Of a DNA stretch of 64,000 nucleotides, positions 30,679 through 63,990 are shown one piece after another. This DNA comes from a bacterium (lineage in GTDB: Bacteria; Patescibacteriota; Minisyncoccia; UBA6257; UBA9933): assembly GCA_030693235.1 (NCBI GenBank), contig JAUYBE010000006.1, positions 2,758 to 66,757 of the forward strand. The letters run 5' to 3'. The notes below the pieces were generated by a model, which was not told where the DNA came from, did no database searches, and saw only the letters and a program-made list of their open reading frames with translations. A program made the translations under genes and the position numbers. Numbering within the stretch: the first letter of the stretch is position 1; each line of letters starts with the position of its first letter.

Positions 30679-31569
30679 ATGCCATTGCGTTTTTTAATCA
30701 TTGTTCTTTTGATTCTCGCGGCAGTTTTTTATTTTCAGAACGGAAGCCTGAAAACCGAAAACGTCGCGACTTTTGAACCGATAAAAAAATCGGTTGTTGG
30801 ATTGGCGGAAGAATCAAAAATAGAAGAAGTGGAGAAAGCGATAAAAGCTGTTTCCGCTCCGCCGCCTCTTAGAATTAAAAAAGAAGTTTCGCAAGAAGTT
30901 CCGCCGTCTATTCTTACCCGGCTTGGGATATTCACTTGGACGAATACCCAGAGAATAATAAACGGTTTTCCGGCGCTTCAGGAAAGCGCTGAATTAAACG
31001 CAGTGGCTCTTTTTAAAGCGGATGATATATTAAAAAGGCAATATTTTAATCATATTTCGCCAATCGGCGAAGGTCCGGCGGAATTGGCGAAGAAAGCCGG
31101 TTATGAATATATTTCGATCGGAGAAAATTTAGCAATGGGCAATTTTAAAAACGACGGCGATTTAGTCGAATCTTGGATGAACAGCCCGGGTCATCGCGCC
31201 AATATTTTGAATTTCAAATACAAAGAATTGGGGGTGGCGGTTGTAAAAGGCGAGTATAAAGGGGAAACCGTCTGGGTGGCGGTTCAGGAATTCGGTTTGC
31301 CGCTTTCCGCTTGCTCTCAGCCGGAGCAGGCTTTAAAAAATCAGATTGAACAAGCGCAAAATCAAATTAACAATTTTAAAAGCCAAATTGAAGATAAAAT
31401 TCAGGAATTGGAAAGCAAGAAATTCAACGGTCGGCAGGAGTATAACCAAAAAATCAACGAGTATAACGAATTAGTCAATCAACACAATAATTTAATTGAA
31501 ACAATCAAATCTTTGATCTCCGATTATAATAATCAGGTAAATAATTTTAATTTTTGTTTAAAAGCATGA
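30679..31569 (+). CDS. CAP/SCP/PR1-like domain protein with an N-terminal TM anchor and a C-terminal coiled coil
   Basis: 'GHRANILNFKYKELGVAVV' is the CAP-domain signature. Confidence 0.65.
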   Translation: MPLRFLIIVLLILAAVFYFQNGSLKTENVATFEPIKKSVVGLAEESKIEEVEKAIKAVSAPPPLRIKKEVSQEVPPSILTRLGIFTWTNTQRIINGFPALQESAELNAVALFKADDILKRQYFNHISPIGEGPAELAKKAGYEYISIGENLAMGNFKNDGDLVESWMNSPGHRANILNFKYKELGVAVVKGEYKGETVWVAVQEFGLPLSACSQPEQALKNQIEQAQNQINNFKSQIEDKIQELESKKFNGRQEYNQKINEYNELVNQHNNLIETIKSLISDYNNQVNNFNFCLKA

Positions 31570-32351
31570 AGGAGTTGCGTATTCAAAAATATCTTTCAGG
31601 TCAAGGCGTTTGTTCCCGCCGGGAAGCCGAAGATTTTATCAGGCGCGGTTTTGTTTTTGTGAACGGCAAAGTCGTCAGAGAAATGGGAGTTAAAATCAAT
31701 CCGGAAACGGACAAGGTGGAGCTTATTATTAAGCCGGCCGGCGGGCCTGCCTGCGCAGGCAGGGAAGATAAAAAAGAAAGCGTGATTGTTTATAAGCCCC
31801 GGGGAATTGTTTCTTCGCGAATTCCTTCCGAGGGAAAAACAATATACGATCTTTTTCCGCAATTTTCCAAATTGAATATTGTGGGGCGGCTTGATAAGGA
31901 AAGCGAAGGATTGCTCTTGCTTTCAAATGACGGCGTTATCGCGAGAGCCGTAACCGGAGAAGAACATATTATGGAAAAAGAATATGAAGTGGTTGTTCGG
32001 GAGAAAATAAACGCTTCCAAAATAATCGGTTCATTTAAAAAAGGCATTCAGTTGGCGGATTGGAAAACTTTTCCGGCAAGGGTTAGGGTTTTGAATGATT
32101 ATACTTTTCGTGTTATTCTTAAGGAAGGAAAAAATCACCAGATTCGCAGAATGTGCGAACATATCCGTCTTACCGTTGTTAAATTAAAGCGGATTCGGAT
32201 AGGAAACATATTGTTAGGCAAGCTTGATATTGGCGGCCACCGTTTGCTTACAAATCAAGAAGTTCAAAAATTAAAGGAAATTTTATATGCTCTAATTCGC
32301 GCGAATAGGAGAATAGATTACAATAAACTAAGCAAAAAGTCGAAAAATTAA
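31554..32351 (+). CDS. Pseudouridine synthase, RsuA/RluB family (S4 + catalytic domain); probable start at 31566
   Basis: S4 is 'RIQKYLSGQGVCSRREAEDFI'. The catalytic Asp lies in 'VGRLDKESEGLLLLSNDG'. The C-terminal coding sequence contains a copy of the ATTCGCGCGAAT repeat (32289-32316). Confidence 0.75.
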   Translation: MFKSMKELRIQKYLSGQGVCSRREAEDFIRRGFVFVNGKVVREMGVKINPETDKVELIIKPAGGPACAGREDKKESVIVYKPRGIVSSRIPSEGKTIYDLFPQFSKLNIVGRLDKESEGLLLLSNDGVIARAVTGEEHIMEKEYEVVVREKINASKIIGSFKKGIQLADWKTFPARVRVLNDYTFRVILKEGKNHQIRRMCEHIRLTVVKLKRIRIGNILLGKLDIGGHRLLTNQEVQKLKEILYALIRANRRIDYNKLSKKSKN

Positions 32352-41800: not shown

Positions 41801-43600
41801 ATGCCCAGAACAAAATTTTTACAATTAGCCGAGGTTTTTGAACGGCTGGAAAAAACAGCTTCCAGTTTGGCGATGATCGATATTTTAGCGGATTTTTTCC
41901 CGAAAATTTCGCCGGAAGAAGCGAAAATCAGCGCTTATCTTTTGCGGGGCGAGCTGGCTCCGGCTTACGAAAATTTGGAAATCGGTTTGGCCGACAAGAT
42001 GGTAGCGCGGGCGATTGCCAAGTCCGAAAATATCAAAGTTGAAAAGGTAAAACTTTTATATAATAAAACCGGCGATTTAGGATTGGTGGTTGTCTCCCTG
42101 CGGGAGATGTCCCGAAGGGACAAAAATTTAAAATTGAAATCTTCGGTCGTCCGACGACCGAATATTGATTTTTTGACGGTTAAAGAAGTTTTTGAAAAAC
42201 TGATTGAAATTGCCAGAATCGGCGGCGAGGGTTCGCAAGATAAAAAAATAAATCTTTTGGCTGATTTATTCTCAAAGACCTCCAATCTTGAGGCAAAATA
42301 TATTATTAGAACAATTCTGGGGACATTGCGATTGGGAGTAGGCGAAATGACTTTTCTTCAAGGATTGGCCAAAGCGTTCGGAGCGGGCAAAAAAGACAAA
42401 GAGATTTTGGAATACGCCTTTAACGTTTTGTCGGACTTGGGCGAAATAGCTTGTATAGTTTCCGAATCGGGAATTAAAAAAATTTCAGAAATTAAACCGA
42501 AAGTTGGAGCGCCGATCAGAGTAATGCTGTCCAACAGAATTCAGGAATTGGAAGAAATAAAAGATCATATTTCCGGCTTGGTTTCGGTTGAAGAAAAATA
42601 TGACGGCGAAAGAATTCAGGCGCACATAAAAAAAACCGGCGAAACTTCGCTGTTTTCCCGCCGGCAGGACAATATCACTCATCAATACCCCGACATTATT
42701 GATGGCTTAAAAAAATCTTTCGCAGGCAAGGAAGCGATCGTTGAGGGAGAAGTCGTGGCCTACAATGAAGCTAAGGGAAAATTGTTGCCGTTTCAGGTTT
42801 TGATGTCGCGGCGGCGGAAACATAATATTGAAGAATACGTCAAAAAAATTCCGGTTCGTTATTTTTTGTTTGATTTGCTTTATTTGGACGGCAAAAATTA
42901 TTTAAAACAGCCATTGAAAGAAAGAAGAGCGGTCTTGGAACGTTCTTTTTCCGATAAAGGCGGGAAGAAAATCAATCCGATTAATTTCGGCAGATACGCG
43001 ATTACGGACGATTTATCTGAAATTAAATCTTATTTCAACGATTCAATTAAGCGCGGAGCCGAAGGCGTGATGATTAAAGATTATTCCGGTATTTATCAAG
43101 CCGGTTCGCGCGGCTGGCTTTGGATTAAATTTAAAAAAGAATATCAGAAAGAATTAGCGGACAATTTTGATTTAGCGGTAATTGGCGGGCTTTACGGCGC
43201 CGGCCGTCGGGCAAAAACTTATGGTTCTCTTTTAGTCGCGGCCTATAATCCTATCACAAACAAATATTATTCTTTTACTAAGGTTGGCACCGGTTTTACT
43301 GATGAAAATCTGTCCCGATTAATGAAAATGTTTGAAAAATATAAATTAAAAGAAAAGCATAAATCGGTGGAAACAGGAATGAAACCCGATGTCTGGTTTG
43401 AGCCGAAAATCGTGATGGAGATTTCCGGCGCGGAGATAACAGTTTCGCCGATTCATACGGTGGCAAAAGACAAAATCAAGACCGGCGGCTTGGCTTTGAG
43501 ATTCCCGAAGTTTTTAAGATGGCGCGAAGATAAATCCGCCGAAAACGCCACCACGGTTGAAGAAATTTATAATATTTACAAAATGGGAGTGAAAAAGTAA
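41801..43600 (+). CDS. lig: ATP-dependent DNA ligase (archaeal/eukaryotic-type, LigB family)
   Basis: Motif I is 'EEKYDGERIQAH' (KxDG). The adenylation and OB domain layout fits, and the C-terminus is 'LRFPKFLRWREDK'. Confidence 0.85.
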   Translation: MPRTKFLQLAEVFERLEKTASSLAMIDILADFFPKISPEEAKISAYLLRGELAPAYENLEIGLADKMVARAIAKSENIKVEKVKLLYNKTGDLGLVVVSLREMSRRDKNLKLKSSVVRRPNIDFLTVKEVFEKLIEIARIGGEGSQDKKINLLADLFSKTSNLEAKYIIRTILGTLRLGVGEMTFLQGLAKAFGAGKKDKEILEYAFNVLSDLGEIACIVSESGIKKISEIKPKVGAPIRVMLSNRIQELEEIKDHISGLVSVEEKYDGERIQAHIKKTGETSLFSRRQDNITHQYPDIIDGLKKSFAGKEAIVEGEVVAYNEAKGKLLPFQVLMSRRRKHNIEEYVKKIPVRYFLFDLLYLDGKNYLKQPLKERRAVLERSFSDKGGKKINPINFGRYAITDDLSEIKSYFNDSIKRGAEGVMIKDYSGIYQAGSRGWLWIKFKKEYQKELADNFDLAVIGGLYGAGRRAKTYGSLLVAAYNPITNKYYSFTKVGTGFTDENLSRLMKMFEKYKLKEKHKSVETGMKPDVWFEPKIVMEISGAEITVSPIHTVAKDKIKTGGLALRFPKFLRWREDKSAENATTVEEIYNIYKMGVKK

Positions 43601-43821: not shown

Positions 43822-44922
43822 ATGATTAAGTATGAAAAGAAAATTGAAGCCGGAATTGATTACAAAAAAGCTGTTTTTTGGGCCAGGGAATTTCGGATGC
43901 CTTTGTTTTGGATTGGCGATAAAGAGCGCAAAATCTTCCAAAAGAACAACCTGGTTTTATATAGAAATTCAGTGATTGTCATGTTTCATCTGAACGGGCG
44001 GGAAGTAGTTTGGGCGGAGGAGGGGCTTAATTATTTTTCCAGCTTCCAGAAGATTGAAGATTACGAAAAGAAAGTTAAGGAGTCGTTTTTAGCAATCGAT
44101 AAATTTCTGGCTGACCTGAAGAAAATAAACCCAAAAAAATTAAGCAACTCGGAGCTGGAGGCCTGGTTCGTCAAAACGCTAAAATTGCTGACCAATTTCA
44201 GCAATATTTATACTCGGACAGAACCCGCTTTTATGGCTGAGTTTGAGAAATTAAAATCAAATGAGAAGGCGATAAAAAAATTAGGTCAATTGCGATTTGC
44301 TTTGCGGGAAAAATGCGACCCGGTTTGGCAGGTTTTAATGGGTAAGATTTGCGGCCAAATCGCTCGAAAAGCTGGACGGCGAGGACTTGACCTTTTCTTT
44401 TATACAAAAGAAGAATTGATTGGGCTTTTAAAGGGGAAAGCAGTTTCGGAAAAAGTGATTAGCAATCGTCGGGGAGGATACGCTTTAATTTCTTTGGCTA
44501 ATGGAGAAAAAATATTAAAGACTGGCAATGGGTTCAGAAAAATTTACCGGTTACTCTTGACTCAACCAAAGAAAATAGTTGAAATTAAGGGACAGACGGC
44601 CTGCCAAGGCAAGGCCAGGGGTAGGGTTAGGATAATTTTGCACAATAAAAAAGATATTTCCAAGGATGTGGCCAGATTTAGACAAGGAGAGATTTTAGTT
44701 ACGGAAATGACCCGGCCGGATACTGTTATGGTTTGTCGCCAAGCCGCCGCCATAATCACTGATGAGGGAAGTATCACCAGTCACGCCGCCATAATTTCGC
44801 GCGAGCTGGGCATTCCCTGCGTGGTTGGCACCAGGCACGCAACGCAGATTTTAGAAACCGGCGATTGGGTAGAAGTGGATGCCACCAAGGGATTAGTGAA
44901 GATAATAAATAAGAATAGTTAA
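43822..44922 (+). CDS. Protein with a C-terminal PEP-utilising-enzyme mobile (swivel phosphohistidine) domain and an unassigned N-terminal region
   Basis: 'VTEMTRPDTVMVCRQAAAIITDEGSITSHAAIISRELGIPCVVG' is the PEP-utilizers signature with the phospho-His. Confidence 0.6.
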   Translation: MIKYEKKIEAGIDYKKAVFWAREFRMPLFWIGDKERKIFQKNNLVLYRNSVIVMFHLNGREVVWAEEGLNYFSSFQKIEDYEKKVKESFLAIDKFLADLKKINPKKLSNSELEAWFVKTLKLLTNFSNIYTRTEPAFMAEFEKLKSNEKAIKKLGQLRFALREKCDPVWQVLMGKICGQIARKAGRRGLDLFFYTKEELIGLLKGKAVSEKVISNRRGGYALISLANGEKILKTGNGFRKIYRLLLTQPKKIVEIKGQTACQGKARGRVRIILHNKKDISKDVARFRQGEILVTEMTRPDTVMVCRQAAAIITDEGSITSHAAIISRELGIPCVVGTRHATQILETGDWVEVDATKGLVKIINKNS

Positions 44923-44927
44923 AAATT

Positions 44928-45683
44928 ATGTCGGAAAAATTTAAGGAAATCATTGAAAAAAAGGAAAGCGTGCCGTTTGAAGCCGATATGCGGGTGGATT
45001 TTTTCCGTCATGGCAAGGTAAATTATACTGCGGAAGAATTAGCTTCCGCCAAATATGAAGGCCAGCTGGGAGATGTCGGCAGAAAGCAGGTAGAAGCAGG
45101 GGCGCAAAAATTAGCCCAATCAATTGATAGGGAGCGAGAGTTAGTCGTGCTTTGGGCCAGTCCCAGGCAAAGAGCTCAAGAGTCGGCCGAAATTATCGCT
45201 GAAATTTTAAAAGCAGAGAATATCGGCGTTATTCAGAAATTGGGTAAAAAAGATATCAGGAAAATAGGAGCTTTAAGAGATGTTGGCTTGAGCCCGGAAT
45301 TTATGAAGGCCAAAGGACCCGACCGGGATTGGATGGAATTTTGGGATAAAGCTGATAATTTGCCCGAGAGCACGGAAGCTCCCGAGAGTCTTAAAGAACG
45401 TTCATTGAGAATATTGGCTTACTTGGAAAAAATTTCCCGCTTGATTTCACCACCGGCTGATAAGAAATTACATTTTATTTGCGTGGGGCACGAGGAAAGC
45501 TTTAAAGAGTTGTTGAGCGAGGGTTTTGGTCAGGGCGTTGAAAAAGAGAGTCGGCCGGCCAATGCGGAAACCATGAGACTGGATATTTTTCATTCCGGCG
45601 CCAAGCCAGAATTTAGGTTAAAATATAGAGATGAGGAAGCAGATTTAAAATTTGATTCGGCCGAAAGAAAGATCTATAAATAA
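44928..45683 (+). CDS. Histidine phosphatase superfamily (PGAM branch) protein
   Basis: 'VDFFRHGK' (RHG) and the second His in 'FICVGHEESF'. It is tightly packed between the two PEP-synthase-like genes. Confidence 0.55.
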   Translation: MSEKFKEIIEKKESVPFEADMRVDFFRHGKVNYTAEELASAKYEGQLGDVGRKQVEAGAQKLAQSIDRERELVVLWASPRQRAQESAEIIAEILKAENIGVIQKLGKKDIRKIGALRDVGLSPEFMKAKGPDRDWMEFWDKADNLPESTEAPESLKERSLRILAYLEKISRLISPPADKKLHFICVGHEESFKELLSEGFGQGVEKESRPANAETMRLDIFHSGAKPEFRLKYRDEEADLKFDSAERKIYK

Positions 45684-46630
45684 TGAAAATTTACACTAAA
45701 CAATTTAAACAATTAAGTAAAGTCGATGTGGCCATCGCCGGCGGGAAAGGGGCGAGCTTGGGTGAGATGGCGCAAGCAGGCTTTCTTGTTCCGCCGGGTT
45801 TTGTAGTTTTGGCGAGCGCGTTCGAGAAATTTTTGGAAGAGACGGATTTAAACGTGGAGATGAGCGCGATTTTAAAAAAGGTGAATTACAAAGATATTAA
45901 TTCGGTTGATAAGGCCTCAAATCAAATCGGGGATTTGATCGCTGACGCGGATTTTCCTAAAGACATTGGTAAGGAAATAAAAAAAGAATTTGGCAAGATG
46001 GGTGTCAAATTTGTGGCCGTGCGTTCTTCCGCCACGGCCGAGGACTCCTCGATTGCCTCTTGGGCAGGGGAGTTGGAAAGTCATTTGAATGTTGATGAAA
46101 AAGACTTATTTGAGGCGGTTAAAAAATGCTGGGCTTCTCTTTTTACTCCCCGCGCCATATTTTATCGTTTTGAAAAGAATTTGCAAAAGCAAAAAGTTTC
46201 AGTGGCGGTGGTGGTGCAGGCAATGGTGCAGTCGGAGGTTTCGGGCGTTGCTTTCACCGTGCATCCCGTAACCGAAGACAGAAATCAGATGGTTATTGAA
46301 GCGGGTTGGGGTCTCGGCGAGGCGATAGTGGGCGGAAAAATCACGCCTGATACCTATATTGTCGCCAAAGACAGCTTAGAAATTTTGGATAAAAATATTT
46401 TTTCCCAGGAGATAAAAATCGTTAAAGACGGTTTGGGCACAAAAGAAGAAGCGGTTGAAAAGAGCGAACAGGAAAAACAGAAGCTGACTGATGAAAAAAT
46501 CATTGAACTTGCCAAAATTTGTAAAAAAATAGAAGAGCATTATGGATTTCCGCAAGATATTGAATGGGCGTTTGAAAAAGAAAAATTTTATATTGTCCAA
46601 AGCAGGCCAATAACCACTTTAGTTGAATAA
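45683..46630 (+). CDS. PPDK_N-like PEP/pyruvate-binding (ATP-grasp) domain protein, PEP-synthase N-terminal homologue
   Basis: 'DVAIAGGKGASLGEMAQAGFLVPPGFVV' and 'FVAVRSSATAEDS...SWAGELES' are the hallmark of the PEP synthase/PPDK N-domain. Confidence 0.65.
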   Translation: MKIYTKQFKQLSKVDVAIAGGKGASLGEMAQAGFLVPPGFVVLASAFEKFLEETDLNVEMSAILKKVNYKDINSVDKASNQIGDLIADADFPKDIGKEIKKEFGKMGVKFVAVRSSATAEDSSIASWAGELESHLNVDEKDLFEAVKKCWASLFTPRAIFYRFEKNLQKQKVSVAVVVQAMVQSEVSGVAFTVHPVTEDRNQMVIEAGWGLGEAIVGGKITPDTYIVAKDSLEILDKNIFSQEIKIVKDGLGTKEEAVEKSEQEKQKLTDEKIIELAKICKKIEEHYGFPQDIEWAFEKEKFYIVQSRPITTLVE

Positions 46631-47003: not shown

Positions 47004-48488
47004 ATGGATATTCGCGATTTAACAATTAAAAAATTTCACGAAGGATTGGTAAATAAACAATTTTCGGTTTTTGAGATTACGAAAGCGTTTTTTAATTATA
47101 TTAAAGAAAAAGATTCACGGATAAACGCTTATTTGCGTCTAACCGAAGATTCAGCTTTGTCGCGGGCGAATAAAGTTGATATTGAATTGGCCGAGGGGAA
47201 AAACTTGGGAATTTTAGCAGGTATCCCTTTGGCTATTAAAGACAATATTTTAATTGAAGGCGAGTTGGCGACAGCTGGCTCGAAAATTTTAGAAAATTAT
47301 CGGGCGAGCTATGACGCGACCGTAATTAAAAAACTTAAAAAATCCGGCGCCGTGTTTTTAGGCAAAACTAATATGGACGAATTTGCCATGGGTTCTTCGA
47401 CGGAAAATTCGGCTTTTAAAATTACCAAAAATCCTCATGATTTGGAACGGGTGCCGGGCGGTTCTTCCGGCGGTTCAGCCGCGGCTGTTGCTTCTGATAT
47501 GGCTGTGGCGGCATTGGGTTCGGATACAGGTGGCTCTATCAGACAGCCGGCGGGTTTTTGCGGCGTGGTTGGTTTAAAGCCGACTTACGGCGCGGTTTCC
47601 AGAAACGGTTTAATCGCAATGGCTTCTTCTTTGGATCAAATCGGTCCGATAACAAAAACAGTTGAAGACGCGGGAATATTATTTGAGGCGATTAAAGGCA
47701 AAGATGAATTGGACGCGACCAGCGCTACGAATTCAGAATTCAGAATTCAGAATTCAGAATTACAGGATATTCGGAAATTGAAAATCGGGTTGCCGAAGGA
47801 GTATTTTGCCGGTGGATTAATCAAGGAAGTGGAAGAGGCGATTGAAGAAGCGATTAAAAATTTAAAATCATTAAAAATAGAATTTAAAGAAATCAGTTTG
47901 CCGCACACAAAATACGCTTTATCCTGTTATTATATTATTATGCCGGCGGAAGTAAGCGCGAATCTGGCGAGGTTTGATGGAGTGCGCTATGCGCGCCTAA
48001 GCGATGCAAAACTACGAATACACGCGAATGCCGCGAATAAATCAGAATTATTAAATATTTATCTTAAAACGAGGGGTGAGGGATTCGGCGATGAAGCAAA
48101 ACGAAGAATTATTTTAGGAACTTTTGTTTTGTCGTCGGGATATTACGACGCTTATTATTCTAAAGCTCAAAAAGTCAGGCGATTAATTAAAGAAGATTTT
48201 GACAAAGCGTTTGAAGAAGTCGATGTAATTTTAACGCCGGTTTCGCCGACCCCGGCCTTCAAAATCGGCGAAAAAACTGATGACCCGCTTCAAATGTATT
48301 TGTCAGATATTTTTACCATTCCGGTTAATTTGGCAGGGCTCCCGGCTCTTTCGATTCCAGTTAACCCAAAACCTAAAACCCAAAACCTAAAACCTAATTT
48401 ACCCGTTGGTTTCCAGCTTATCGGCAAACCGTTTCGCGAAGTTGATATTTTAGGAATCGGGCAGTATTATGAGAAAATCATCGAATAA
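47004..48488 (+). CDS. gatA: Asp/Glu-tRNA amidotransferase subunit A (amidase signature)
   Basis: The AS signature is 'GGSSGGSAAAVAS'. It contains in-frame tandem-repeat insertions at 47729-47763 and 48368-48395. Confidence 0.9.
   Translation: MDIRDLTIKKFHEGLVNKQFSVFEITKAFFNYIKEKDSRINAYLRLTEDSALSRANKVDIELAEGKNLGILAGIPLAIKDNILIEGELATAGSKILENYRASYDATVIKKLKKSGAVFLGKTNMDEFAMGSSTENSAFKITKNPHDLERVPGGSSGGSAAAVASDMAVAALGSDTGGSIRQPAGFCGVVGLKPTYGAVSRNGLIAMASSLDQIGPITKTVEDAGILFEAIKGKDELDATSATNSEFRIQNSELQDIRKLKIGLPKEYFAGGLIKEVEEAIEEAIKNLKSLKIEFKEISLPHTKYALSCYYIIMPAEVSANLARFDGVRYARLSDAKLRIHANAANKSELLNIYLKTRGEGFGDEAKRRIILGTFVLSSGYYDAYYSKAQKVRRLIKEDFDKAFEEVDVILTPVSPTPAFKIGEKTDDPLQMYLSDIFTIPVNLAGLPALSIPVNPKPKTQNLKPNLPVGFQLIGKPFREVDILGIGQYYEKIIE
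47729..47763 (+). repeat. (GAATTCA)5 tandem heptamer, in-frame within gatA
   Basis: Four perfect units and one variant unit encode 'NSEFRIQNSEL'. Each unit contains an EcoRI site. Confidence 0.8.
48368..48395 (+). repeat. (AAAACCT)4 tandem heptamer in gatA
   Basis: Units aaaacct/aaaaccc/aaaacct/aaaacct encode 'PKPKTQNLKP'. Confidence 0.8.
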
Positions 48489-48511
48489 CGAATTAGCGCG
48501 AATATACAAAT

Positions 48512-50328: not shown

Positions 50329-51735
50329 TTATTTCAACTTTTTAACTATTTTTTTGATTTTTTCACCTCTTTCTTTATAATCTTTGAACATATCAAAGCT
50401 GGCTGAGGCGGGGGAGAAGATGACGGTAATTGGTAATTGGTAATTAGTAATTAGAGATTTGGCGGTTTTATAAGAAAGATTAATAGCTTTATTTAAATTT
50501 TTAACTTTTCTAATTACTATTTGCCGATTACTATTTACTGAAATTGCTTTAGCGATTTTTTGTTTGTTTTCGCCGAATAAAATCACCATTTTTGTATTGG
50601 AATTTTTTAACGCTTTGGCGAGAGGGGAATAATTTAAATTTTTGTCTTTGCCGCCGGCGATTAAGATTTTCGGTTCGCTAAAGGCGTGGATTGCCGCGGC
50701 CGCGGTTTGGGGATTGGTGGAAGCGGAGTCGTTGTAGAATTTAATTAATGTTTTGGAAGTCCGACCTCCCAAATATTGACGATTAATTTTAGGAGGTCGG
50801 ACTTCCCGAAATTGGTTAACGTTGATACTACGAACAAATTCTAATCGGTGCTCCAAACCGCGGAAATTTTTAATGGCCTTAATTATCTTTTCTTTCGGAC
50901 AACCGAGTGATAGAGCGACGGTCGCCGCCATTATTGCGTTTTTCAAATTATGCGTTCCGGGGATCTTTATAACTGATTTTATTTTATTCTCTAATTCGCG
51001 CGAATTAGAGAACGATAAATCTATGGGAAATTTTTTGCCGGGACTTTTTTGGGCGGTTAACTTTGAATATTTATCATCCGAAAAATAAAATATTTTATCG
51101 TTTTTTTTCTGCCATTTGGCGATATTGGCTTTGGCGTTGAAGTATTCGCGGAAATTTTTGTGAGCGTCTAAATGGTCTGGGAAAATACCCAAGAAAACGG
51201 CAATGTCGGGTGATTGGGTTAAGTCCTGAAGCTGAAAACTGGAAAGCTCTAAAATAACGACAGAATTATTTTTTAATTTTGGCAAAATTTCAATAGCTGG
51301 TTTGCCGATGTTGCCGGCTAAATAAGTATTTTTATCGCAAGCTTTTAAAATTTTATAAAGCAGAGTGGAAGTTGTCCCTTTGCCCTTAGTGCCTGTTATG
51401 CCGATGACTTGTGGTGAGCCGCGCCGAACCGTTTTTCTTATCTCTTCAAAAAACAATTGAGTGGCGCTGGAAAATTTAACTCCTTTTTTAACAGCTTTTT
51501 GGATTTCCGGCGAATTATAAGGCACGCCCGGCGAGCGAAAAACAAGGTCGAATTGTTCCAGATTTTTCAAATAATTTTTATCGAGTTTTTTGTCTAAAAC
51601 AGAAACATCCGATTTCTTAAACCGCGGGGACTTTTTGAGAAATTTCAATAGAGATTTTCCTTCAAGGCCAAAGCCCAGAATGGCGATTTTTTTTGAAGTT
51701 AAATTATTGGTCATAAATAAAAAATACCCCGCCAT
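50329..51735 (-). CDS. murD: UDP-N-acetylmuramoylalanine--D-glutamate ligase
   Basis: The N-terminus is 'KIAILGFGLEGKSLLKFL' and the P-loop is 'GITGTKGKGTT'. It contains three small in-frame insert elements: 50425-50456, 50755-50806 and 50988-51011. Confidence 0.85.
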   Translation of the reverse strand: MAGYFLFMTNNLTSKKIAILGFGLEGKSLLKFLKKSPRFKKSDVSVLDKKLDKNYLKNLEQFDLVFRSPGVPYNSPEIQKAVKKGVKFSSATQLFFEEIRKTVRRGSPQVIGITGTKGKGTTSTLLYKILKACDKNTYLAGNIGKPAIEILPKLKNNSVVILELSSFQLQDLTQSPDIAVFLGIFPDHLDAHKNFREYFNAKANIAKWQKKNDKIFYFSDDKYSKLTAQKSPGKKFPIDLSFSNSRELENKIKSVIKIPGTHNLKNAIMAATVALSLGCPKEKIIKAIKNFRGLEHRLEFVRSINVNQFREVRPPKINRQYLGGRTSKTLIKFYNDSASTNPQTAAAAIHAFSEPKILIAGGKDKNLNYSPLAKALKNSNTKMVILFGENKQKIAKAISVNSNRQIVIRKVKNLNKAINLSYKTAKSLITNYQLPITVIFSPASASFDMFKDYKERGEKIKKIVKKLK

Positions 51736-52956: not shown

Positions 52957-54005
52957 ATGATTAAAGAAATTAGTAGAAATTTTGGGGAAGAAATAAAAAA
53001 AGTCGAAGATTTAAAAAGTTTAGAACAACTGCGTATTAAATATCTCGGCCGGAAAGGCGAGTTAACGCGAATTTTGCGCGGGCTCAAGGATTTATCGGTG
53101 GAAGAGCGCCGAAAAATCGGCCCTCAAGCCCAAAAACTCAAAAAAGAACTGGAAGAATTATTTAGAGAAAAAACAGATGAACTAAAACCTAAAAACTATA
53201 ACCTAAAACCTAAAATTGACATCACCAAGCCGGGCAAAAAGATTCCCGTAGGCCATCTTCATCTTTTATCGAAAACGGAAGAGGAAATTCGCCAGATCTT
53301 TCTTTCGATGAATTTTTCGGCGGTTGAAGGGCCGGAAATTGAGGACGAGTATCATAATTTTGACGCTTTAAACATTCCACCGAATCATCCGGCAAGAGAT
53401 ATGTGGGATACATTTTGGCTTCGCCAAAATGAAATCAAAAATCAAAAATCAAAAATAACCTAAAACCTAAAACCCAAAACCTAAAACCTTTATTATTGCG
53501 CACTCACACAAGCCCTATGCAAATCCGCTATATGGAAACTCACAATCCGCCGTTTCAGATTATTGTGCCGGGACGAGTTTTTCGTTACGAAGCCACAGAC
53601 GCCTCTCATGAAACCAATTTTTATCAAGTTGAGGGGTTGATGGTTGGCAAAGATGTTTCTTTGGCGAATTTTAAGTTTGTTATTGAGGAATTTTTTAAGA
53701 AATTTTTTGCTTCGACGGGTTCGGCGCGGGGCGGCAAAGAGATAGAATTTCGCTATCGGCCGAGTTATTTTCCTTTTGTCGAGCCGGGCGTTGAAGTCGA
53801 TATTAAATTTGAAAATAAATGGCTGGAAATTATGGGCGCTGGTATGGTCCATCACAATGTTTTTGAAGCGGTGAAATATAATCCTTATGAATGGCAAGGT
53901 TTTGCTTTTGGAATGAGTTTAGAAAGATTGACGATGATCAAATACAATATTCCCGACATCAGACTGTTCTACTCCGGCGACTTGAGATTTATAAATCAAT
54001 TCTAA
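52957..54005 (+). CDS. pheS: Phenylalanyl-tRNA synthetase alpha subunit, split into two ORFs (52957-53463 and 53496-54005) by a frameshift within a heptamer tandem-repeat tract
   Basis: ORF1 ends '...HPARDMWDTFWLRQNEIKNQKSKIT*'. ORF2 (TTG start) continues 'LLRTHTSPMQIRYM...FRYEATDASHETNFYQVEGL...' with class II motifs 2 and 3. Frame 3 is open from 53433, so a 1-nt insertion in the A5 runs at 53433-53460 would fuse the two. Confidence 0.8.
53432..53488 (+). repeat. (AAATCAA)3-(CTAAAAC)4 compound tandem repeat at the pheS break
   Basis: Seen directly in the sequence. The same (AAAACCT)n family occurs at 53184-53211, 60593-60620, 60724-60744 and 48368-48395. A related (AAAACTC)4 is at 56051-56078, and (GGTAATT)4 is at 50425-50456. 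Confidence 0.8.
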
Positions 54006-60024: not shown

Positions 60025-60891
60025 ATGAGCGCTAAAAAACTTTTAATTTTCAATTGGAAAATGGCGCCGGACTCGCTAAAAGAAGCGATTTCGCTTTTTG
60101 AGCGAACGCGGACTTGCGCGGACAAAACGCGGAATCACGCAGAAACAATTATTGCTCCGCCGTTTGTTTATCTATCAAATTTGTCAAAAGTCAAAAGTTC
60201 TCTCTTCGGGAGATCTCCCGTAGGGAGACAAAAGTCAAAAGTTGCGCTGGCTGCCCAGAATGTTTTCTGGGAAGACAGCGTCGCTTATACTGGTGAAATT
60301 TCAGCGAGTATGCTAAAAGATTTAGGCGTGGAATATGCGATTATCGGACATTCAGAAAGGCGGAAATATTTATCCGCCGAAGGCGGATTCGCCTCTGGCG
60401 GAAACGAAACAGATAAGATGATTAACAAAAAAATTCTGGCGTCATTGAAAGCGGGATTGAAAGTAATTCTCTGTGTCGGTGAACCGACACAACGCGGACA
60501 AACGCGGACTGAACGCGGACTGACGCGGAATATAAAATGGGCGAAAAATTATGTTAAAAATCAATTAGAAAAAGATTTAAAAAATTTAATCCAAAACCTA
60601 AAACCTAAAACCCAAAACCTAATTATTGCCTACGAGCCCCTCTGGTCCATCGGCACCGGCCATTCGGACGCGCCGCAAGACGCGGCAGAAATGATAAATT
60701 TTATTAAAAATATTCTAAAAGCTAAAACCTATAACCTAAAACCTAAGGTTTTGTATGGCGGCTCCGTTAATTCCAAAAACATCGCCAAATTTCTAAAGCA
60801 TCCCGAAATCGACGGCGCGCTTGTCGGTCACGCGAGTTTGAAACCCAAAGAAGTTAAAGCTATTATTGAAATAGCGTCGAAAATGTGCTAA
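60025..60891 (+). CDS. tpiA: Triosephosphate isomerase carrying four in-frame repeat insertions
   Basis: 'IIGHSERR' and 'AYEPLWSIGTGHSDAP' (TIM signature). It has extra segments at 60183-60243, 60490-60536, 60593-60620 and 60724-60744. Confidence 0.85.
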   Translation: MSAKKLLIFNWKMAPDSLKEAISLFERTRTCADKTRNHAETIIAPPFVYLSNLSKVKSSLFGRSPVGRQKSKVALAAQNVFWEDSVAYTGEISASMLKDLGVEYAIIGHSERRKYLSAEGGFASGGNETDKMINKKILASLKAGLKVILCVGEPTQRGQTRTERGLTRNIKWAKNYVKNQLEKDLKNLIQNLKPKTQNLIIAYEPLWSIGTGHSDAPQDAAEMINFIKNILKAKTYNLKPKVLYGGSVNSKNIAKFLKHPEIDGALVGHASLKPKEVKAIIEIASKMC

Positions 60892-62244: not shown

Positions 62245-63990
62245 ATGGCTATGAAATTTGATGCCGAAGACAAGGCGTTAGTTGACATTCTCAACGGCAA
62301 AGAAAAATATAAAATACCTAGATATCAAAGACCTTATTCTTGGACTACAGATGAGGTGTCTGACTTGTGGAATGACTTAAAGGAAGGGGAATCAGTTTTT
62401 TTGGGATCTTTCGTATTTAATTATGAAAAATACGATGAAGATGGTTTCGTAGAGGTTATAGATGGACAACAACGATTGATAACCTTAACAATACTAATGG
62501 CGGTTTTAAGAGATATTTACAAAGAATTAGGAGAAGATAGAAAATCTAATAGAACCCAAGATATAATAGGCTTTTCCGACCCGATTACACTAAAAGAAGA
62601 ATACAGATTGAAATGTGGAGATACTTTAAATAAATTTTTTAGTGAAAATATTCAAAAAGAAAATTCTAATATTCTTATAACTAAGGCCAAAGGAAGAGAG
62701 GAAAAAGCAATAAAAGAGAACTATAAATTTTTAAGAGACGGAATAAGCGATGAGCTAAGACAGTTGTCTGAAAAAACCAGAAAAATTCAATATATAGATG
62801 ATTTAAAGAAAAGAATTTTTGATTTTAAGATAATCTGGATAAAAATTGAAAATGATGAAGATGCTTATTCTATTTTTGAAACCGTCAATGCTCGAGGTGC
62901 TGATCTAACTGCGGCGGATCTTTTAAAAAATTATCTTTTCAGTAAATTGCCCGGAAAGGAAGGAAAGGAAAAGGGAATAGATCTTGCAAAAGACATATGG
63001 TCAACGATAGAAAATAATGTTGAAAGCGCGAAAGGCCCCCTAAATGTTTCTAAATTTATAAGATATTTTTGGCTTTCAAAGTATTCTTTCGTATCAGAAA
63101 AAAAGCTTTACAAAGAGGTAAAAAGAACGATAGGCGATCCAAGTATCTTCTTATTAGATATTTCTAATGCGTCAGAATATTATTATAAAATAGCCAACGA
63201 TTCAATAAGTATTAATGATTGGTCAGAAGATTTCGTTGATAAAAAAATAGCGCAAAGAATAATTGAAACATTAAACGGATTGAGGACAATGGGTATTACA
63301 CAGTGTTATTCTCTGCTTTTTTGTCTATTATTAAACAAAGATAAAATTAATTTCGATTTTAGTGATGTTTTTAAAACTATCGAAAAATATCACTTTGCCT
63401 ATTCGGCTGTTTGTAAGCTTTCTGGTAATGTTGTTGAAAGGTTATATTTCAATACTTCAAGGGACATACAAGAAGCATTAAAAATAGCAGATTCTAAAAA
63501 AAGAACTAAAAATATCCAAAGAGCGCTTTCTAATTTCAAGAATAAACTAGATTATCCAACCAAAGATTTCTTTGTCGAGAAATTTATGGATCTTGAGTAC
63601 AGAAATTACCCTTTGGTTATTTACATACTCTCAAACATAGAAAGAGCCATTGGAATAGCGGAAGAAAAATCTATTAATTTTACAAAAGTAAATATCGAAC
63701 ATATTTTACCCCAAGATCCTACTGCGTGGAAACTTTCCAAAAAGGACATCAAAGATTATGTCAATAAATTAGGTAATTTAACTTTGATTTCCAAAAAGAT
63801 TAATGGGCCTATGGGAAACAAACCATTAAAGAAGAAAGTAGAATTATTTAAAGAGTCAGAATTAAATATTAATAACGAATTAGTTAAGAAATTTGAAGTA
63901 TTGAAATATAAATGGGGTGAGAAAGAAATTATTGACAGACAGAAAGAGTTAGCAAAGTTTGCCTATGATGTTGTTTGGAAATTTAAATAA
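62245..63990 (+). CDS. GmrSD-like type IV restriction endonuclease family protein (DUF262 + DUF1524)
   Basis: The N-terminal 'IPRYQRPYSW...VIDGQQRLITL' is the DUF262 DGQQR motif. The C-terminal 'NIEHILPQDP...LGNLTLISKKIN' is the DUF1524 His-Me finger. Confidence 0.75.
   Translation: MAMKFDAEDKALVDILNGKEKYKIPRYQRPYSWTTDEVSDLWNDLKEGESVFLGSFVFNYEKYDEDGFVEVIDGQQRLITLTILMAVLRDIYKELGEDRKSNRTQDIIGFSDPITLKEEYRLKCGDTLNKFFSENIQKENSNILITKAKGREEKAIKENYKFLRDGISDELRQLSEKTRKIQYIDDLKKRIFDFKIIWIKIENDEDAYSIFETVNARGADLTAADLLKNYLFSKLPGKEGKEKGIDLAKDIWSTIENNVESAKGPLNVSKFIRYFWLSKYSFVSEKKLYKEVKRTIGDPSIFLLDISNASEYYYKIANDSISINDWSEDFVDKKIAQRIIETLNGLRTMGITQCYSLLFCLLLNKDKINFDFSDVFKTIEKYHFAYSAVCKLSGNVVERLYFNTSRDIQEALKIADSKKRTKNIQRALSNFKNKLDYPTKDFFVEKFMDLEYRNYPLVIYILSNIERAIGIAEEKSINFTKVNIEHILPQDPTAWKLSKKDIKDYVNKLGNLTLISKKINGPMGNKPLKKKVELFKESELNINNELVKKFEVLKYKWGEKEIIDRQKELAKFAYDVVWKFK

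What the first reader, a model, noticed from the sequence alone, without database searches (positions are those of the whole stretch)
50425..51011. murD and tpiA carry in-frame palindromic and hairpin mini-insertions
murD contains a perfect 15-bp inverted repeat with a 22-nt loop (50755-50806), translated as 'EVRPPKINRQYLGGRTSK'. It also contains a 24-bp perfect palindrome 'tctctaattcgcgcgaattagaga' (50988-51011, 'SNSRELE') and a (GGTAATT)4 array.

tpiA contains a two-hairpin segment bracketed by 'gtcaaaagtcaaaagtt' direct repeats (60183-60243). That arrangement is reminiscent of target-site duplication by a tiny mobile element. It also carries a tandem 'aacgcggact(g)a' x4 array (60490-60536).

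Together these show a genome that tolerates, or is actively seeded with, structured DNA insertions inside enzymes.
Basis: seen in the sequence. Interest (0 to 1): 0.55.

Follow-up and report, generated by a model that had tools for sequence, protein, structure and literature searches.

The report
In-frame palindromic repeats in CPR housekeeping genes
The hairpins seen in murD and tpiA are copies of small GC-cored palindromic repeat families that sit, in frame and translated, in surface loops of many unrelated essential genes of groundwater Patescibacteria (CPR), a close parallel to the palindromic elements of Rickettsia that I could not find reported for this group.

Summary
The murD hairpin is the core of a ~72-nt element made of two adjacent ~36-nt palindromes. 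A metagenome scan found the element in 42 contigs. It sits in frame in at least 11 unrelated genes: murD, tgt, asnB (several sites), rsmH, a class-I aaRS, tatD, def, a GT4 glycosyltransferase, and short variants in spoU and comEC. Most MurD orthologues lack it. An AlphaFold model puts it in a disordered loop.

The tpiA 'two-hairpin' segments are 30-nt tandem pairs of 15-nt hairpins. These also form a dispersed family, found in def, a PBP gene and the window's DNA ligase. The tpiA 'target-site duplication' is a pre-existing (GTCAAAA)n heptamer array split by the insert.

At positions with identical amino acids, codons inside the inserts are 95–100% identical between orthologues, against 55–64% in the rest of each gene. 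Empty, monomer and dimer states occur at one asnB site, and core variants keep the palindrome.

Best reading: RPE/REPIN-like selfish palindromic repeats, filtered by selection to open frames and loops. Heptamer arrays (12 against 0 expected) are a parallel phenomenon. The mobilising mechanism is unknown.

The parts
50329..51735 (-). murD (UDP-N-acetylmuramoyl-L-alanine--D-glutamate ligase), host gene, 468 aa
   Evidence: Pfam PF08245, PF02875 and PF21799. 100% identical to an NCBI MAG protein on a 228-kb contig. Matches PDB MurD structures.
50746..50820 (-). Double-palindrome element (dimer), 75 nt relative to the empty orthologue (net +72 nt, 24 aa). It consists of two ~36-nt palindromic units. 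It encodes NVNQFREVRPPKINRQYLGGRTSKTL.
   Evidence: The same element is at the same site in L001 (P0010). The family consensus is TCAATTTCAGGAAGTCCGACCTCCTGAAATTAACCGTCAATATTTGGGAGGTCGGACTTCCCAAATATTGA. In the AF2 model it is a disordered loop, residues 307-328.
50987..51012 (-). 26-bp perfect palindrome TTCTCTAATTCGCGCGAATTAGAGAA, encoding FSNSRELEN, in a segment of MurD that varies among relatives
   Evidence: A 36-nt stretch around it is identical in L165 (P0005 murD), a gene only 70% identical overall. At the same site, L164 (P0002) carries a monomer of the GTCCGAC-core palindrome instead.
50425..50452 (-). Heptamer array, (AATTACC)4 on the gene strand, encoding LITNYQLPIT just before the conserved FSPASASFDMF strand
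   Evidence: Orthologues carry other heptamer units at the same site: CCTAAAC in L164 and TCAATGG in L165 and L166.
60025..60891 (+). tpiA (triosephosphate isomerase), host gene, 288 aa, 43 aa longer than PDB 6BVE
60199..60228 (+). 30-nt mini-dimer: two tandem 15-nt hairpins, TCTCTCttcGGGAGA (imperfect; TRF-independent reading) and TCTCCCgtaGGGAGA. It is inserted inside a (GTCAAAA)n heptamer array that spans 60183-60243.
   Evidence: (I22). The same stem family occurs in the window's DNA ligase gene and in L125.
60373..60402 (+). 30-nt mini-dimer TCCGCCgaaGGCGGA + TTCGCCtctGGCGGA, encoding SAEGGFASGG just after the catalytic HSERR motif
   Evidence: a clean 30-nt presence/absence against L166, and 29/30 identical in L167. 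RNA fold z = -3.6. The same 30-mer occurs in def (L155, reverse complement) and a PBP gene (L166).
60100..60145 (+). ACGCGGA(C/A) repeats with 10-11-nt spacing, encoding ERTRTCADKTRNHAE
   Evidence: At the same loop, L167 has (CTAAAAG)n and L166 has (GACTACG)n.
60486..60536 (+). ACGCGGAC(T)(G)A tandem array, about 4 copies, encoding QRGQTRTERGLTRN
   Evidence: 38/42 identical in L167. L166 has a (GCGAYAA)n heptamer array at the same site.
60593..60622 (+). (AAAACCT)4.3 heptamer array in tpiA, with one T>C change that removes the in-frame TAA
60715..60746 (+). (CTAAAAC)4.6 heptamer array in tpiA (the same unit as AAAACCT, rotated)
42093..42122 (+). 30-nt mini-dimer TCTCCCtgcGGGAGA + TGTCCCgaaGGGACA inside the ATP-dependent DNA ligase gene (41801-43600)
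42130..42170 (+). Monomer relative of the murD element in the DNA ligase gene: the palindrome CGGTCGTCCGACGACCG followed by the family's AATATTGA arm
   Evidence: (17 of 22 mirrored positions pair).

Best explanation
The murD hairpin and the tpiA hairpin pairs are copies of dispersed families of small palindromic repeats with GC-rich cores. These families populate the genomes of a clade of AT-rich groundwater Patescibacteria (Parcubacteria, near Candidatus Wolfebacteria).

The units:
- The larger family has a ~36-nt palindromic unit: an AT-rich arm, a 15-nt core GGAAGTC-N-GACYTCC, and the complementary arm. It usually occurs as a tandem dimer of about 72 nt.
- The smaller families have a 15-nt hairpin unit (6-bp stem, 3-nt loop). 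It usually occurs as a 30-nt tandem pair.

How it works:
- Copies are spread to new places by an unknown copy-and-paste process (inferred).
- Selection then keeps only copies that leave the reading frame open and fall in surface loops (shown for frame and for MurD).
- The surviving copies are translated as hydrophilic, disordered peptides (inferred from open frames).
- Once in place, a copy is inherited vertically (shown).
- A copy can shift between zero, one and two units, probably by slippage between its near-identical cores (states shown, process inferred).
- It keeps its palindromic symmetry through paired changes (shown as variants).
- It evolves far more slowly at the nucleotide level than the synonymous sites of its host gene (shown).

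Functionally it works like the Rickettsia palindromic elements and has the architecture of a REPIN: selfish or near-neutral DNA that lengthens enzymes without breaking them. Heptamer tandem arrays at the same kinds of loops are a parallel, slippage-prone component of the same genomic habit.
For: Dispersal:
- The pattern AGTCCGACCTCC-N(4-34)-GGAGGTCGGACT hits 42 metagenome contigs of 35-50% GC, giving 28 distinct contexts.
- The host ORFs are unrelated by Pfam: a GT4 glycosyltransferase, Tgt, AsnB, a class-I aaRS, TatD, RsmH (two lineages) and Def. Short 4-nt-loop variants occur in SpoU and ComEC. MurD hosts it in the window and in L001.
- Copies in RsmH (L151) and the aaRS (L131) are identical over about 72 nt.
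- The 30-nt pair in def (L155) is the exact reverse complement of the one in tpiA (L167). Another lies in a PBP gene (L166).

Insertion status:
- The element is absent from 22 of 24 MurD relatives, including the three closest.
- Filled and empty sites differ by 72 nt in murD and 30 nt in tpiA.

Frame filter:
- Only 2 of the 6 frames of the consensus are fully open.
- Genic copies use QFQEVRPPEINRQYLGGRTSQ. In asnB a 21-nt loop gives KSDLPNIDANFRRSDF. The third peptide occurs only in short ORFs.

Loop location:
- In the AF2 model, residues 307-328 have pLDDT below 50 and lie between two strands.
- Pfam matches are split in two at the element.

Vertical inheritance and constraint:
- At identical amino acids, codons are identical in 19/20 cases inside the murD element against 156/286 in the rest of the gene (p = 2e-4).
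- The palindrome gives 12/12 against 163/291. The tpiA inserts give 20/21 against 109/170.

Unit dynamics:
- asnB shows empty, monomer and dimer states at one site, with a 36-nt step between monomer and dimer.

Symmetry kept:
- Core variants GGAAGTC/GACTTCC, GGACATC/GATGTCC, GGACGTC/GACGTCC, GGATGTC/GACATCC and GGTCGTC/GACGACC all carry the family's AATATT arms.

Not an artefact:
- The element appears in independent JGI, ENA, NCBI and Logan assemblies.
Against: - No mobilising enzyme was found. This is a weak test.
- No target-site duplication or common target motif is visible.
- Copy number in the window is low: one dimer and one diverged monomer in 64 kb. The rest of the source genome could not be read.
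- The genome-collection scan was wasted on a pattern that was too short.
- The strong conservation of synonymous sites is not what simple junk DNA predicts. It leaves room for a function, or for homogenisation by gene conversion.
- The formal covariation test on 18 dimer copies was uninformative, because the cores were fixed by the search pattern.
- Translation of the inserts is inferred from open frames only.
Confidence: 0.6

Rival explanations
1. The elements are functional cis-acting nucleic-acid signals kept by selection. Candidates are an mRNA hairpin that paces translation or controls mRNA decay (a 19-bp perfect stem could be an RNase III substrate), or a symmetric DNA site bound by a dimeric host protein. 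On this view they are not selfish DNA.
For: - Synonymous codons inside the inserts are 95-100% identical between orthologues whose other synonymous sites are near saturation.
- Core variants preserve the palindrome through paired changes.
- The folds are very stable: -34.4 kcal/mol, z = -7.2.
- In MurD the element lies in the first beta-hairpin of the C-terminal domain, close to the junction with the central domain.
Against: - Presence or absence varies among close orthologues of essential genes.
- At one protein site, different lineages carry unrelated repeats.
- There is no consistent position relative to gene starts, ends or domain borders across the 11 hosts.
- The window holds about 1-2 copies per 64 kb, far below the roughly 1 per kb I recall for the Neisseria and Haemophilus DNA uptake sequences (own knowledge).
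- There is no Rfam family and no terminator signature.
- Symmetry can also be maintained without selection, by template-switch correction of quasi-palindromes.
Confidence: 0.2
2. There is no mobility at all. Each insert arose in place through replication slippage and template switching in genomes with a reduced repair repertoire. Similar sequences in different genes would then be convergent products of the same mutational bias.
For: - Tandem duplication is pervasive. There are 12 heptamer-type arrays against 0 expected.
- Monomer and dimer states occur at one site.
- Hairpin pairs are tandem copies of one 15-nt unit.
- Perfect palindromes are the expected end-product of quasi-palindrome correction.
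- Heptamer arrays with different units occupy the same loop in different lineages.
- pheS is frameshifted inside an array.
Against: - Convergence cannot produce identical ~72-nt sequences in rsmH and an aaRS gene.
- It cannot produce the same 30-mer in both orientations in tpiA and def.
- It cannot produce a shared 15-nt core with shared AT-rich arms across 11 genes.
- This process probably explains the expansion, contraction and symmetry of copies and the heptamer arrays. It does not explain the spread of the palindromic families.
Confidence: 0.15
3. The features are assembly or sequencing artefacts, or the host genes are decaying pseudogenes.
For: - The source is a metagenome-assembled genome.
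- pheS in the window is frameshifted inside a repeat array.
Against: - The same elements occur at the same sites in independent assemblies from different samples and pipelines.
- murD and tpiA are full-length, open, and keep all catalytic motifs.
- The AF2 model of MurD is confident outside the insert.
Confidence: 0.02

Closest known systems
Rickettsia palindromic elements (RPEs; Ogata et al. 2000, as summarised in PMC10969869)
   Same: - Dispersed palindromic repeats inserted in frame into many unrelated housekeeping genes.
- Each family is translated into a conserved peptide.
- The location is compatible with the protein fold.
- No transposase or target duplication is known.
- The host is a small-genome, host-dependent bacterium.
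   Different: - Size is about 72 nt (or 36-nt monomers and 30-nt mini-pairs) against about 100-150 bp.
- The architecture is a tandem dimer of a short palindrome with a 15-nt GC-rich core.
- The host phylum is unrelated (Patescibacteria).
- Empty, monomer and dimer states occur at one site.
- Nucleotide-level conservation is marked.
- Sequence similarity to RPE families was not tested.
REPINs / REP sequences with RAYT transposases (PMC3116915, PMC3337134)
   Same: - Two short imperfect palindromes in inverted orientation, separated by a short spacer, fold into one long hairpin.
- Singlets exist alongside doublets.
- Copies are inherited vertically over long times.
   Different: - REPINs are extragenic and number in the hundreds per genome.
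- REPINs come with a single-copy RAYT gene.
- Here most copies are inside genes and in frame, density in the window is low, and no RAYT or IS200-like gene was found in the DNA at hand (weak test).
Mitochondrial GC clusters of yeasts and the 'byp' elements of Magnusiomyces (own knowledge, not checked in the library)
   Same: Short GC-rich palindromic mobile inserts in very AT-rich genomes, including inside protein-coding genes.
   Different: - Byps break the frame and are skipped by translational bypassing.
- Here the frame is kept open and loop lengths are adjusted to keep it open. Read-through translation is therefore the likely fate.
Cyanobacterial STRR heptanucleotide repeats (Mazel et al. 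1990; own knowledge)
   Same: Tandem arrays of 7-nt units are scattered through the genome, with the same unit at several loci. In the window, AAAACCT occurs at five loci.
   Different: - Different units and a different phylum.
- Here the arrays sit mostly inside genes, 4-5 units long, with point changes that remove in-frame stops.
- This comparison bears only on the heptamer arrays, not on the hairpins.

Membership tests
Rickettsia palindromic elements (RPE) | Dispersed repeat family able to fold into a stable hairpin | tested here: met
   42 metagenome contigs and 28 distinct contexts. RNA fold -34.4 kcal/mol, z = -7.2.
Rickettsia palindromic elements (RPE) | In-frame insertion into unrelated protein-coding genes, giving a conserved peptide | tested here: met
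   11 Pfam-distinct host genes. The peptides are QFQEVRPPEINRQYLGGRTSQ or KSDLPNIDANFRRSDF.
Rickettsia palindromic elements (RPE) | Insertion at positions compatible with the protein fold (surface) | tested here: met
   In the MurD AF2 model the insert is a low-confidence loop between two strands. The inserts fall in gaps of the alignments to the solved structures 3LK7 and 6BVE. For the other host genes this rests only on split Pfam matches.
Rickettsia palindromic elements (RPE) | Sequence homology to RPE-1 to RPE-10; size of about 100-150 bp | tested here: not met
   The element is about 72 nt, or 36/30 nt. No sequence comparison with RPEs was run. The host is a Patescibacterium. It therefore works like an RPE but is not filed as one.
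REPIN / REP-RAYT system | Two REP-like palindromes in inverted orientation with a short spacer, forming a hairpin | tested here: met
   Cores at 50755-50769 and 50792-50806. Each is the centre of its own palindrome.
REPIN / REP-RAYT system | Extragenic location | tested here: not met
   At least 15 of 28 distinct contexts lie inside Pfam-confirmed genes.
REPIN / REP-RAYT system | Associated RAYT (IS200/IS605-type Y1 transposase) gene | tested here: inconclusive
No whole genome was available.
REPIN / REP-RAYT system | Tens to hundreds of copies per genome | not testable with these tools
   Only 64 kb of the source genome is held. It has one dimer and one diverged monomer.
MITE (miniature inverted-repeat transposable element) | Target-site duplication flanking the element | tested here: not met
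   The filled-versus-empty junctions of murD and tpiA show none. The tpiA 'direct repeats' are a split heptamer array present in orthologues without the insert.
MITE (miniature inverted-repeat transposable element) | Terminal inverted repeats shared with an autonomous insertion sequence | not testable with these tools
   The ends are symmetric (TCAAT...ATTGA), but no parent insertion sequence could be looked for.
DNA uptake sequences (DUS/USS) | Very high genomic density of one short motif. About 1 per kb is the figure I recall for the Neisseria and Haemophilus signals (own knowledge). | tested here: not met
   Two cores plus one variant in 64 kb.
STRR-type dispersed heptamer repeats | Tandem heptanucleotide arrays, with the same unit at several loci | tested here: met
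   9 period-7 and 3 period-14 arrays against 0 expected. AAAACCT occurs at 48363, 53182, 53457, 60593 and 60715. Arrays are also found in related contigs. This applies to the heptamer arrays only.

The most novel reading that the evidence does not exclude
The palindromic units and the heptamer arrays may be products or substrates of one lineage-specific activity that has not been described. Examples would be a hairpin-ssDNA insertion system or a templated repeat-writing system. On this reading the activity installs short structured DNA at permissive loops of essential genes across Patescibacteria. The units would also be maintained at the nucleotide level because a conserved host or element-encoded factor recognises the GGAAGTC-N-GACTTCC core. 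That would make them a new class of bacterial replicator or signal, not a passive analogue of RPEs.
Probability: 0.15. Interest if true: 0.85.

Novelty: new variant of a known kind. Interest (0 to 1): 0.62.

Why it matters
In-frame palindromic repeats in essential genes are known mainly from Rickettsia, and how they spread there is still unexplained. A second, independent case in the Candidate Phyla Radiation would show that the phenomenon is a recurrent outcome of life with a small, AT-rich, host-dependent genome.

This case also offers features that make the process more tractable:
- a simpler ~36-nt unit;
- visible empty, monomer and dimer states at one site;
- strong conservation of synonymous sites.

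There are practical consequences too:
- Part of the large length variation of CPR housekeeping proteins (MurD 404-556 aa, TpiA 231-296 aa) may be repeat-derived.
- Odd low-complexity peptides in CPR protein databases may have the same origin.
- Gene callers, alignments and phylogenies for these organisms should mask such inserts.

Tried and rejected
Only L008 and L069 held related palindromes.
2. The protein-level census of the insert peptide failed:
   - the query was too short;
   - a synthetic 46-aa query found no word-sharing candidates;
   - a 30-aa window fragment against 1.8 billion representatives gave one unrelated repetitive protein.
3. The covariation test on 18 dimer copies was uninformative for both the two-local-palindrome and the long-hairpin structure, because the search pattern fixed the cores.
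4. Rfam gave no family at gathering score and only sub-threshold generic hairpin matches.
5. The IMG/VR viral contigs gave no match, so there is no sign of a phage vector.
6. The terminator scan gave no call at the hairpin.
7. The transposase search by tblastn gave nothing.
8. Extending the source contig beyond the window gained only about 3 kb or failed.
9. Target-site duplication in tpiA was considered and rejected.
10. A DNA uptake signal was rejected on density.
11. A CRISPR repeat was rejected because there are no spacers.
12. Translational bypassing was judged unlikely because the frames are kept open.
13. Literature searches for CPR or Patescibacteria together with in-frame, palindromic or heptanucleotide repeats returned nothing relevant.
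Full report
**1. Observation**

The window is an AT-rich bacterial segment. ORF 50329-51735 (-) is MurD (Pfam Mur_ligase_M, Mur_ligase_C, MurD-like_N). ORF 60025-60891 (+) is triosephosphate isomerase (PF00121, E = 5e-67).

- The 15-bp perfect inverted repeat lies at 50755-50769 and 50792-50806 with a 22-nt loop. It extends to 19 nt at 95% complementarity.
- The palindrome at 50988-51011 is in fact 26 bp perfect, 50987-51012.
- (GGTAATT)4 lies at 50425-50452.
- The two tpiA hairpins at 60199-60228 lie between GTCAAAAGTCAAAAGTT-type repeats.
- The ACGCGGAC array lies at about 60486-60536.

None of this is chance:

- The murD region folds at -34.4 kcal/mol as RNA, z = -7.2, and at -20 kcal/mol as DNA, z = -5.8.
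- Short GC-containing hairpins number 42 in the window against 13 +/- 3 in simulations.
- Heptamer-type arrays number 12 against none in 20 simulations.

**2. Organism and the insertion test**

The MurD protein is identical to an NCBI MAG protein on a 228-kb contig. Its relatives are Patescibacteria, several of them named Candidatus Wolfebacteria.

- MurD relatives range from 404 to 556 aa. The difference comes from variable inserts at loop positions.
- The hairpin-coded segment NQFREVRPPKINRQYLGGRTSK is absent from 22 of 24 aligned relatives, including the three closest (76-78% identity in the alignment). It is present in P0010 (67% identity in the alignment).
- At the DNA level the window has 72 nt more than the empty orthologue L164, with no duplication at the junction.
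- In an AlphaFold model (mean pLDDT 80), residues 307-328 are a low-confidence loop between strands 299-306 and 329-335. In the alignment to the solved MurD 3LK7 the insert falls between two matched stretches that end at chain residue 318 and resume at 323, at the start of the C-terminal domain.
- TpiA is 43 residues longer than the solved TIM 6BVE, with the excess at five loop positions. Relatives range from 231 to 296 aa.

**3. What the murD hairpin is**

A scan of public metagenome contigs for the two 12-nt core halves separated by 4-34 nt found 42 contigs of 35-50% GC. Those with source labels come from JGI samples and the Hainich ENA groundwater assemblies.

Aligning the copies shows that the hairpin is only the centre of a larger unit. 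The consensus is TCAATTTCAGG-AAGTCCGACCTCC-TGAAATTAA-CC-GTCAATATTTGG-GAGGTCGGACTTCC-CAAATATTGA, 71 nt. It consists of two adjacent ~36-nt palindromes. Each palindrome has an AT-rich arm, a 15-nt GC-rich near-palindromic core and the complementary arm. Because each core is nearly its own reverse complement, the two cores also pair with each other.

The host ORFs are unrelated genes (Pfam):

- a GT4 glycosyltransferase;
- queuine tRNA-ribosyltransferase (Tgt);
- asparagine synthase (AsnB);
- a class-I aminoacyl-tRNA synthetase;
- TatD;
- RsmH/MraW, in two lineages;
- peptide deformylase (Def);
- SpoU methylase and ComEC, which carry short 4-nt-loop variants;
- MurD, in the window and in L001.

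Copies in RsmH (L151) and the synthetase gene (L131) are identical over about 72 nt. About eight further contexts lie in short ORFs and are probably intergenic. The window itself holds one more relative, a monomer palindrome CGGTCGTCCGACGACCG with the family's AATATTGA arm. It lies inside the ATP-dependent DNA ligase gene at about 42130-42170.

**4. Selection for open frames**

- Only two of the six frames of the consensus are free of stop codons.
- Copies inside long genes use the frame QFQEVRPPEINRQYLGGRTSQ.
- In asnB a loop of 21 instead of 22 nt joins two frames into KSDLPNIDANFRRSDF.
- The third peptide (SPTS...EVGL) is seen only in short ORFs.

So the copies that persist inside genes are the ones that can be read through.

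**5. The tpiA hairpin pairs**

The segment 60373-60402 is TCCGCCgaaGGCGGA + TTCGCCtctGGCGGA, encoding SAEGGFASGG.

- It is a clean 30-nt presence/absence difference relative to the syntenic orthologue in L166.
- It is 29/30 identical in L167, a gene 73% identical overall.
- The same 30-mer occurs in def (L155), as the exact reverse complement of the L167 copy. It also occurs in a PBP gene (L166) and, as a variant, in L123.

A second stem family, TCTCCCnnnGGGAGA, forms the pair at 60199-60228 in tpiA. It also forms a pair at 42093-42122 in the ligase gene and one in L125. These pairs fold either as two small hairpins or as one longer hairpin. They are a miniature of the 72-nt architecture: a tandem duplicate of a palindromic unit.

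**6. The proposed target-site duplication is not one**

With the 30-nt pair removed, the flanks join into GTCAAAA GTCAAAA GT(T)CAAAA GTCAAAA GTT, a four-unit heptamer array. Orthologues without the insert already carry both halves. P0163 reads KVKTNKSKI and P0133 reads KSRKSKSKV. The insert landed in, or grew inside, an existing array.

**7. Inheritance and rate**

- At positions where the amino acid is the same, codons are identical in 19 of 20 cases inside the murD element, against 156 of 286 in the rest of the gene (window versus L001; Fisher p = 2e-4).
- The 26-bp palindrome gives 12/12 against 163/291 (window versus L165; p = 0.0016).
- The two tpiA inserts give 20/21 against 109/170 (window versus L167; p = 0.0026).
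- These three pairs were found through protein homology, so the search pattern does not bias them. The pattern-selected pairs show the same trend.
- In asnB, the copies at site 1 and site 2 of one gene differ from each other, but each is identical to its orthologous copy in a gene 84-94% identical.

I read this as vertical inheritance plus a nucleotide-level constraint. I cannot exclude homogenisation by gene conversion, or repeated homing to the same site.

**8. Dynamics and symmetry**

AsnB from four contigs carries element-derived segments at five sites. At one site the states are:

- empty (L152, L147);
- monomer (L127: CTCAATATGGGGAAGTCCGACTTCCCAAAATTAAAC);
- dimer (L145).

The dimer equals the monomer with 36 nt added inside the core. 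Because the two cores are 12/15 identical as direct repeats, slippage between them would interconvert the two states (inferred).

Core variants found with the same AT-rich arms all keep the mirror symmetry through changes on both sides:

- GGACATC/GATGTCC;
- GGACGTC/GACGTCC;
- GGATGTC/GACATCC;
- GGTCGTC/GACGACC;
- GGAGGTTCAACTTCC.

A formal covariation count on 18 dimer copies was uninformative, because the cores were fixed by the search.

**9. The palindrome and the heptamer arrays in murD**

The 36 nt around the 26-bp palindrome are identical in L165, a gene 70% identical overall. At the same protein position, L164 carries a monomer of the GTCCGAC-core family instead: TCAATTTCGGGGAGATCCGACCTCCAAAAATTAA, encoding SISGRSDLQKL. 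Other relatives carry yet other repeat-like peptides there.

The heptamer array (AATTACC)4 precedes the conserved FSPASASFDMF strand. Orthologues have (CCTAAAC)n or (TCAATGG)n at that spot.

In tpiA, three lineages carry three different simple repeats at each of several loops. Within the window the unit AAAACCT recurs at five loci. Arrays are common in related contigs. One T>C change per array removes the TAA that a pure array would put in frame.

**10. Mechanism**

The best-supported account is a set of dispersed, selfish or near-neutral palindromic repeat families that work like Rickettsia palindromic elements and are built like REPINs.

- Shown: dispersal among unrelated genes, insertion status, the frame filter, loop location in MurD, vertical inheritance, the zero/one/two-unit states, preserved symmetry, and slow nucleotide change.
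- Inferred: the copy-and-paste step and its enzyme, translation of the inserts, slippage as the cause of unit changes, and template-switch correction as a cause of symmetry.

Tests that came back negative:

- A weak search found no IS200/RAYT-like gene in 386 kb.
- No target duplication or target motif is visible.
- There is no Rfam family, no copy in IMG/VR and no terminator signature.

The main rival is that the conserved hairpins are functional signals. That reading explains the synonymous-site conservation. It fits poorly with presence/absence among close orthologues and with the replacement of one repeat by another at the same site. In-place slippage alone cannot explain identical 72-nt and 30-nt sequences in unrelated genes, but it probably drives the heptamer arrays and the unit-number changes.

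**11. Comparison and novelty**

The system shares with RPEs the in-frame, fold-compatible insertion of a palindromic repeat into many housekeeping genes (PMC10969869). It shares with REPINs the inverted-doublet hairpin with singlet relatives and long vertical persistence (PMC3116915, PMC3337134).

It differs from both in several ways:

- It fails the size criterion for RPEs. Sequence homology to RPE families was not tested.
- It fails the extragenic criterion for REPINs.
- It shows no target duplication, which MITEs require.

Six full-text searches combining CPR, Patescibacteria or Parcubacteria with in-frame, palindromic, REP or heptanucleotide repeats found no report of it. That is absence from the held library, not proof that it was never described. 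I classify it as a new variant of a known kind.

**12. Verdict**

The insertions and the 'seeded genome' idea hold, and the target-site duplication does not.
- Interest is moderately high, because this is a second, simpler and more tractable instance of a poorly understood phenomenon.
- The unexpected nucleotide-level conservation leaves a functional or novel-mechanism reading open, at about 15%.

Noticed in passing
window 52957-54005 (arrays at 53432-53456 and 53457-53489): pheS is broken by a frameshift inside two adjacent heptamer arrays, (ATCAAAA)3.6 and (AACCTAA)4.7. The N-terminal part (residues 1-164 of the L166 orthologue) ends at a TAA in the array. The C-terminal part (residues 176-340, 89% identical) continues in frame +2. 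One heptamer fewer or two more would restore the frame. The cause could be a slippage polymorphism, phase variation, programmed frameshifting, a split protein or an assembly consensus error.
   Followed up: partly
window 7007-7037, 7965-7995, 32286-32316 (also weakly 48489-48503): There are three near-identical copies of a ~30-nt motif, TATG(G/C)TCTAATTCGCGCGAATA(A/G)G(C/A)GAATAG. Its first half matches the murD palindrome (CTAATTCGCGCGAAT: 9 matches at up to 2 mismatches against 0.46 expected). Two copies are intergenic, and one of these lies just upstream of a TGnTATAAT-like promoter and the ATG at 7062. The third lies in the 3' end of ORF 31554-32351. It may be a regulatory site or another repeat family.
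   Followed up: partly
window 8020-8200: A GC-rich, hairpin-dense intergenic stretch in an AT-rich genome. It includes TCCGCCagttGGCGGA and GCCGAAGTAGCTTCGGC. It has no Rfam match even at E <= 1. It may be an unannotated structured RNA or a cluster of the mini-hairpin repeats.
   Followed up: partly
window 48363, 53182, 53457, 60593, 60715; L164, L162, L167: The same heptamer unit AAAACCT (= CCTAAAA) forms arrays at five loci on the + strand of the window. Related contigs carry (AAACCCT)n, which is the plant-type telomere repeat unit. L167 has (AAAAGCT)n three times in a single tpiA gene. Unit sharing within a genome suggests something more than independent local slippage.
   Followed up: partly
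L127, L145, L147, L152 (asnB): One asparagine synthase gene carries element-derived segments at five different sites, with different core variants at each site. It is an unusually heavy load for a single enzyme.
   Followed up: yes
window 43822-44922 and 45683-46630: The PEP-utilising mobile domain and the PPDK N-terminal ATP-binding domain are encoded by separate ORFs in reversed order, with a histidine phosphatase gene between them. This may be a split or rearranged pyruvate phosphate dikinase / PEP synthase.
   Followed up: no
window 62245-63990: A 581-aa protein with GmrSD_N and GmrSD_C domains (a type IV restriction-like enzyme). The Pfam marks come from the record found.
   Followed up: no
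MurD and TpiA relatives P0035, P0054, P0069, P0013, P0150, P0198: Other orthologues carry long inserts with recurring peptides at several sites. Examples are YTQITTRINADKNKIRVNQRKYQRKSAS, TQINADQDADKRRSISVNQRTHQ and RGQTRTERGLTWTERGLTQ. The peptide RIHSGHSDxFVxSD appears at two different MurD sites in different lineages. These look like further repeat families of the ACGCGGA/AATCAGCG type.
   Followed up: no
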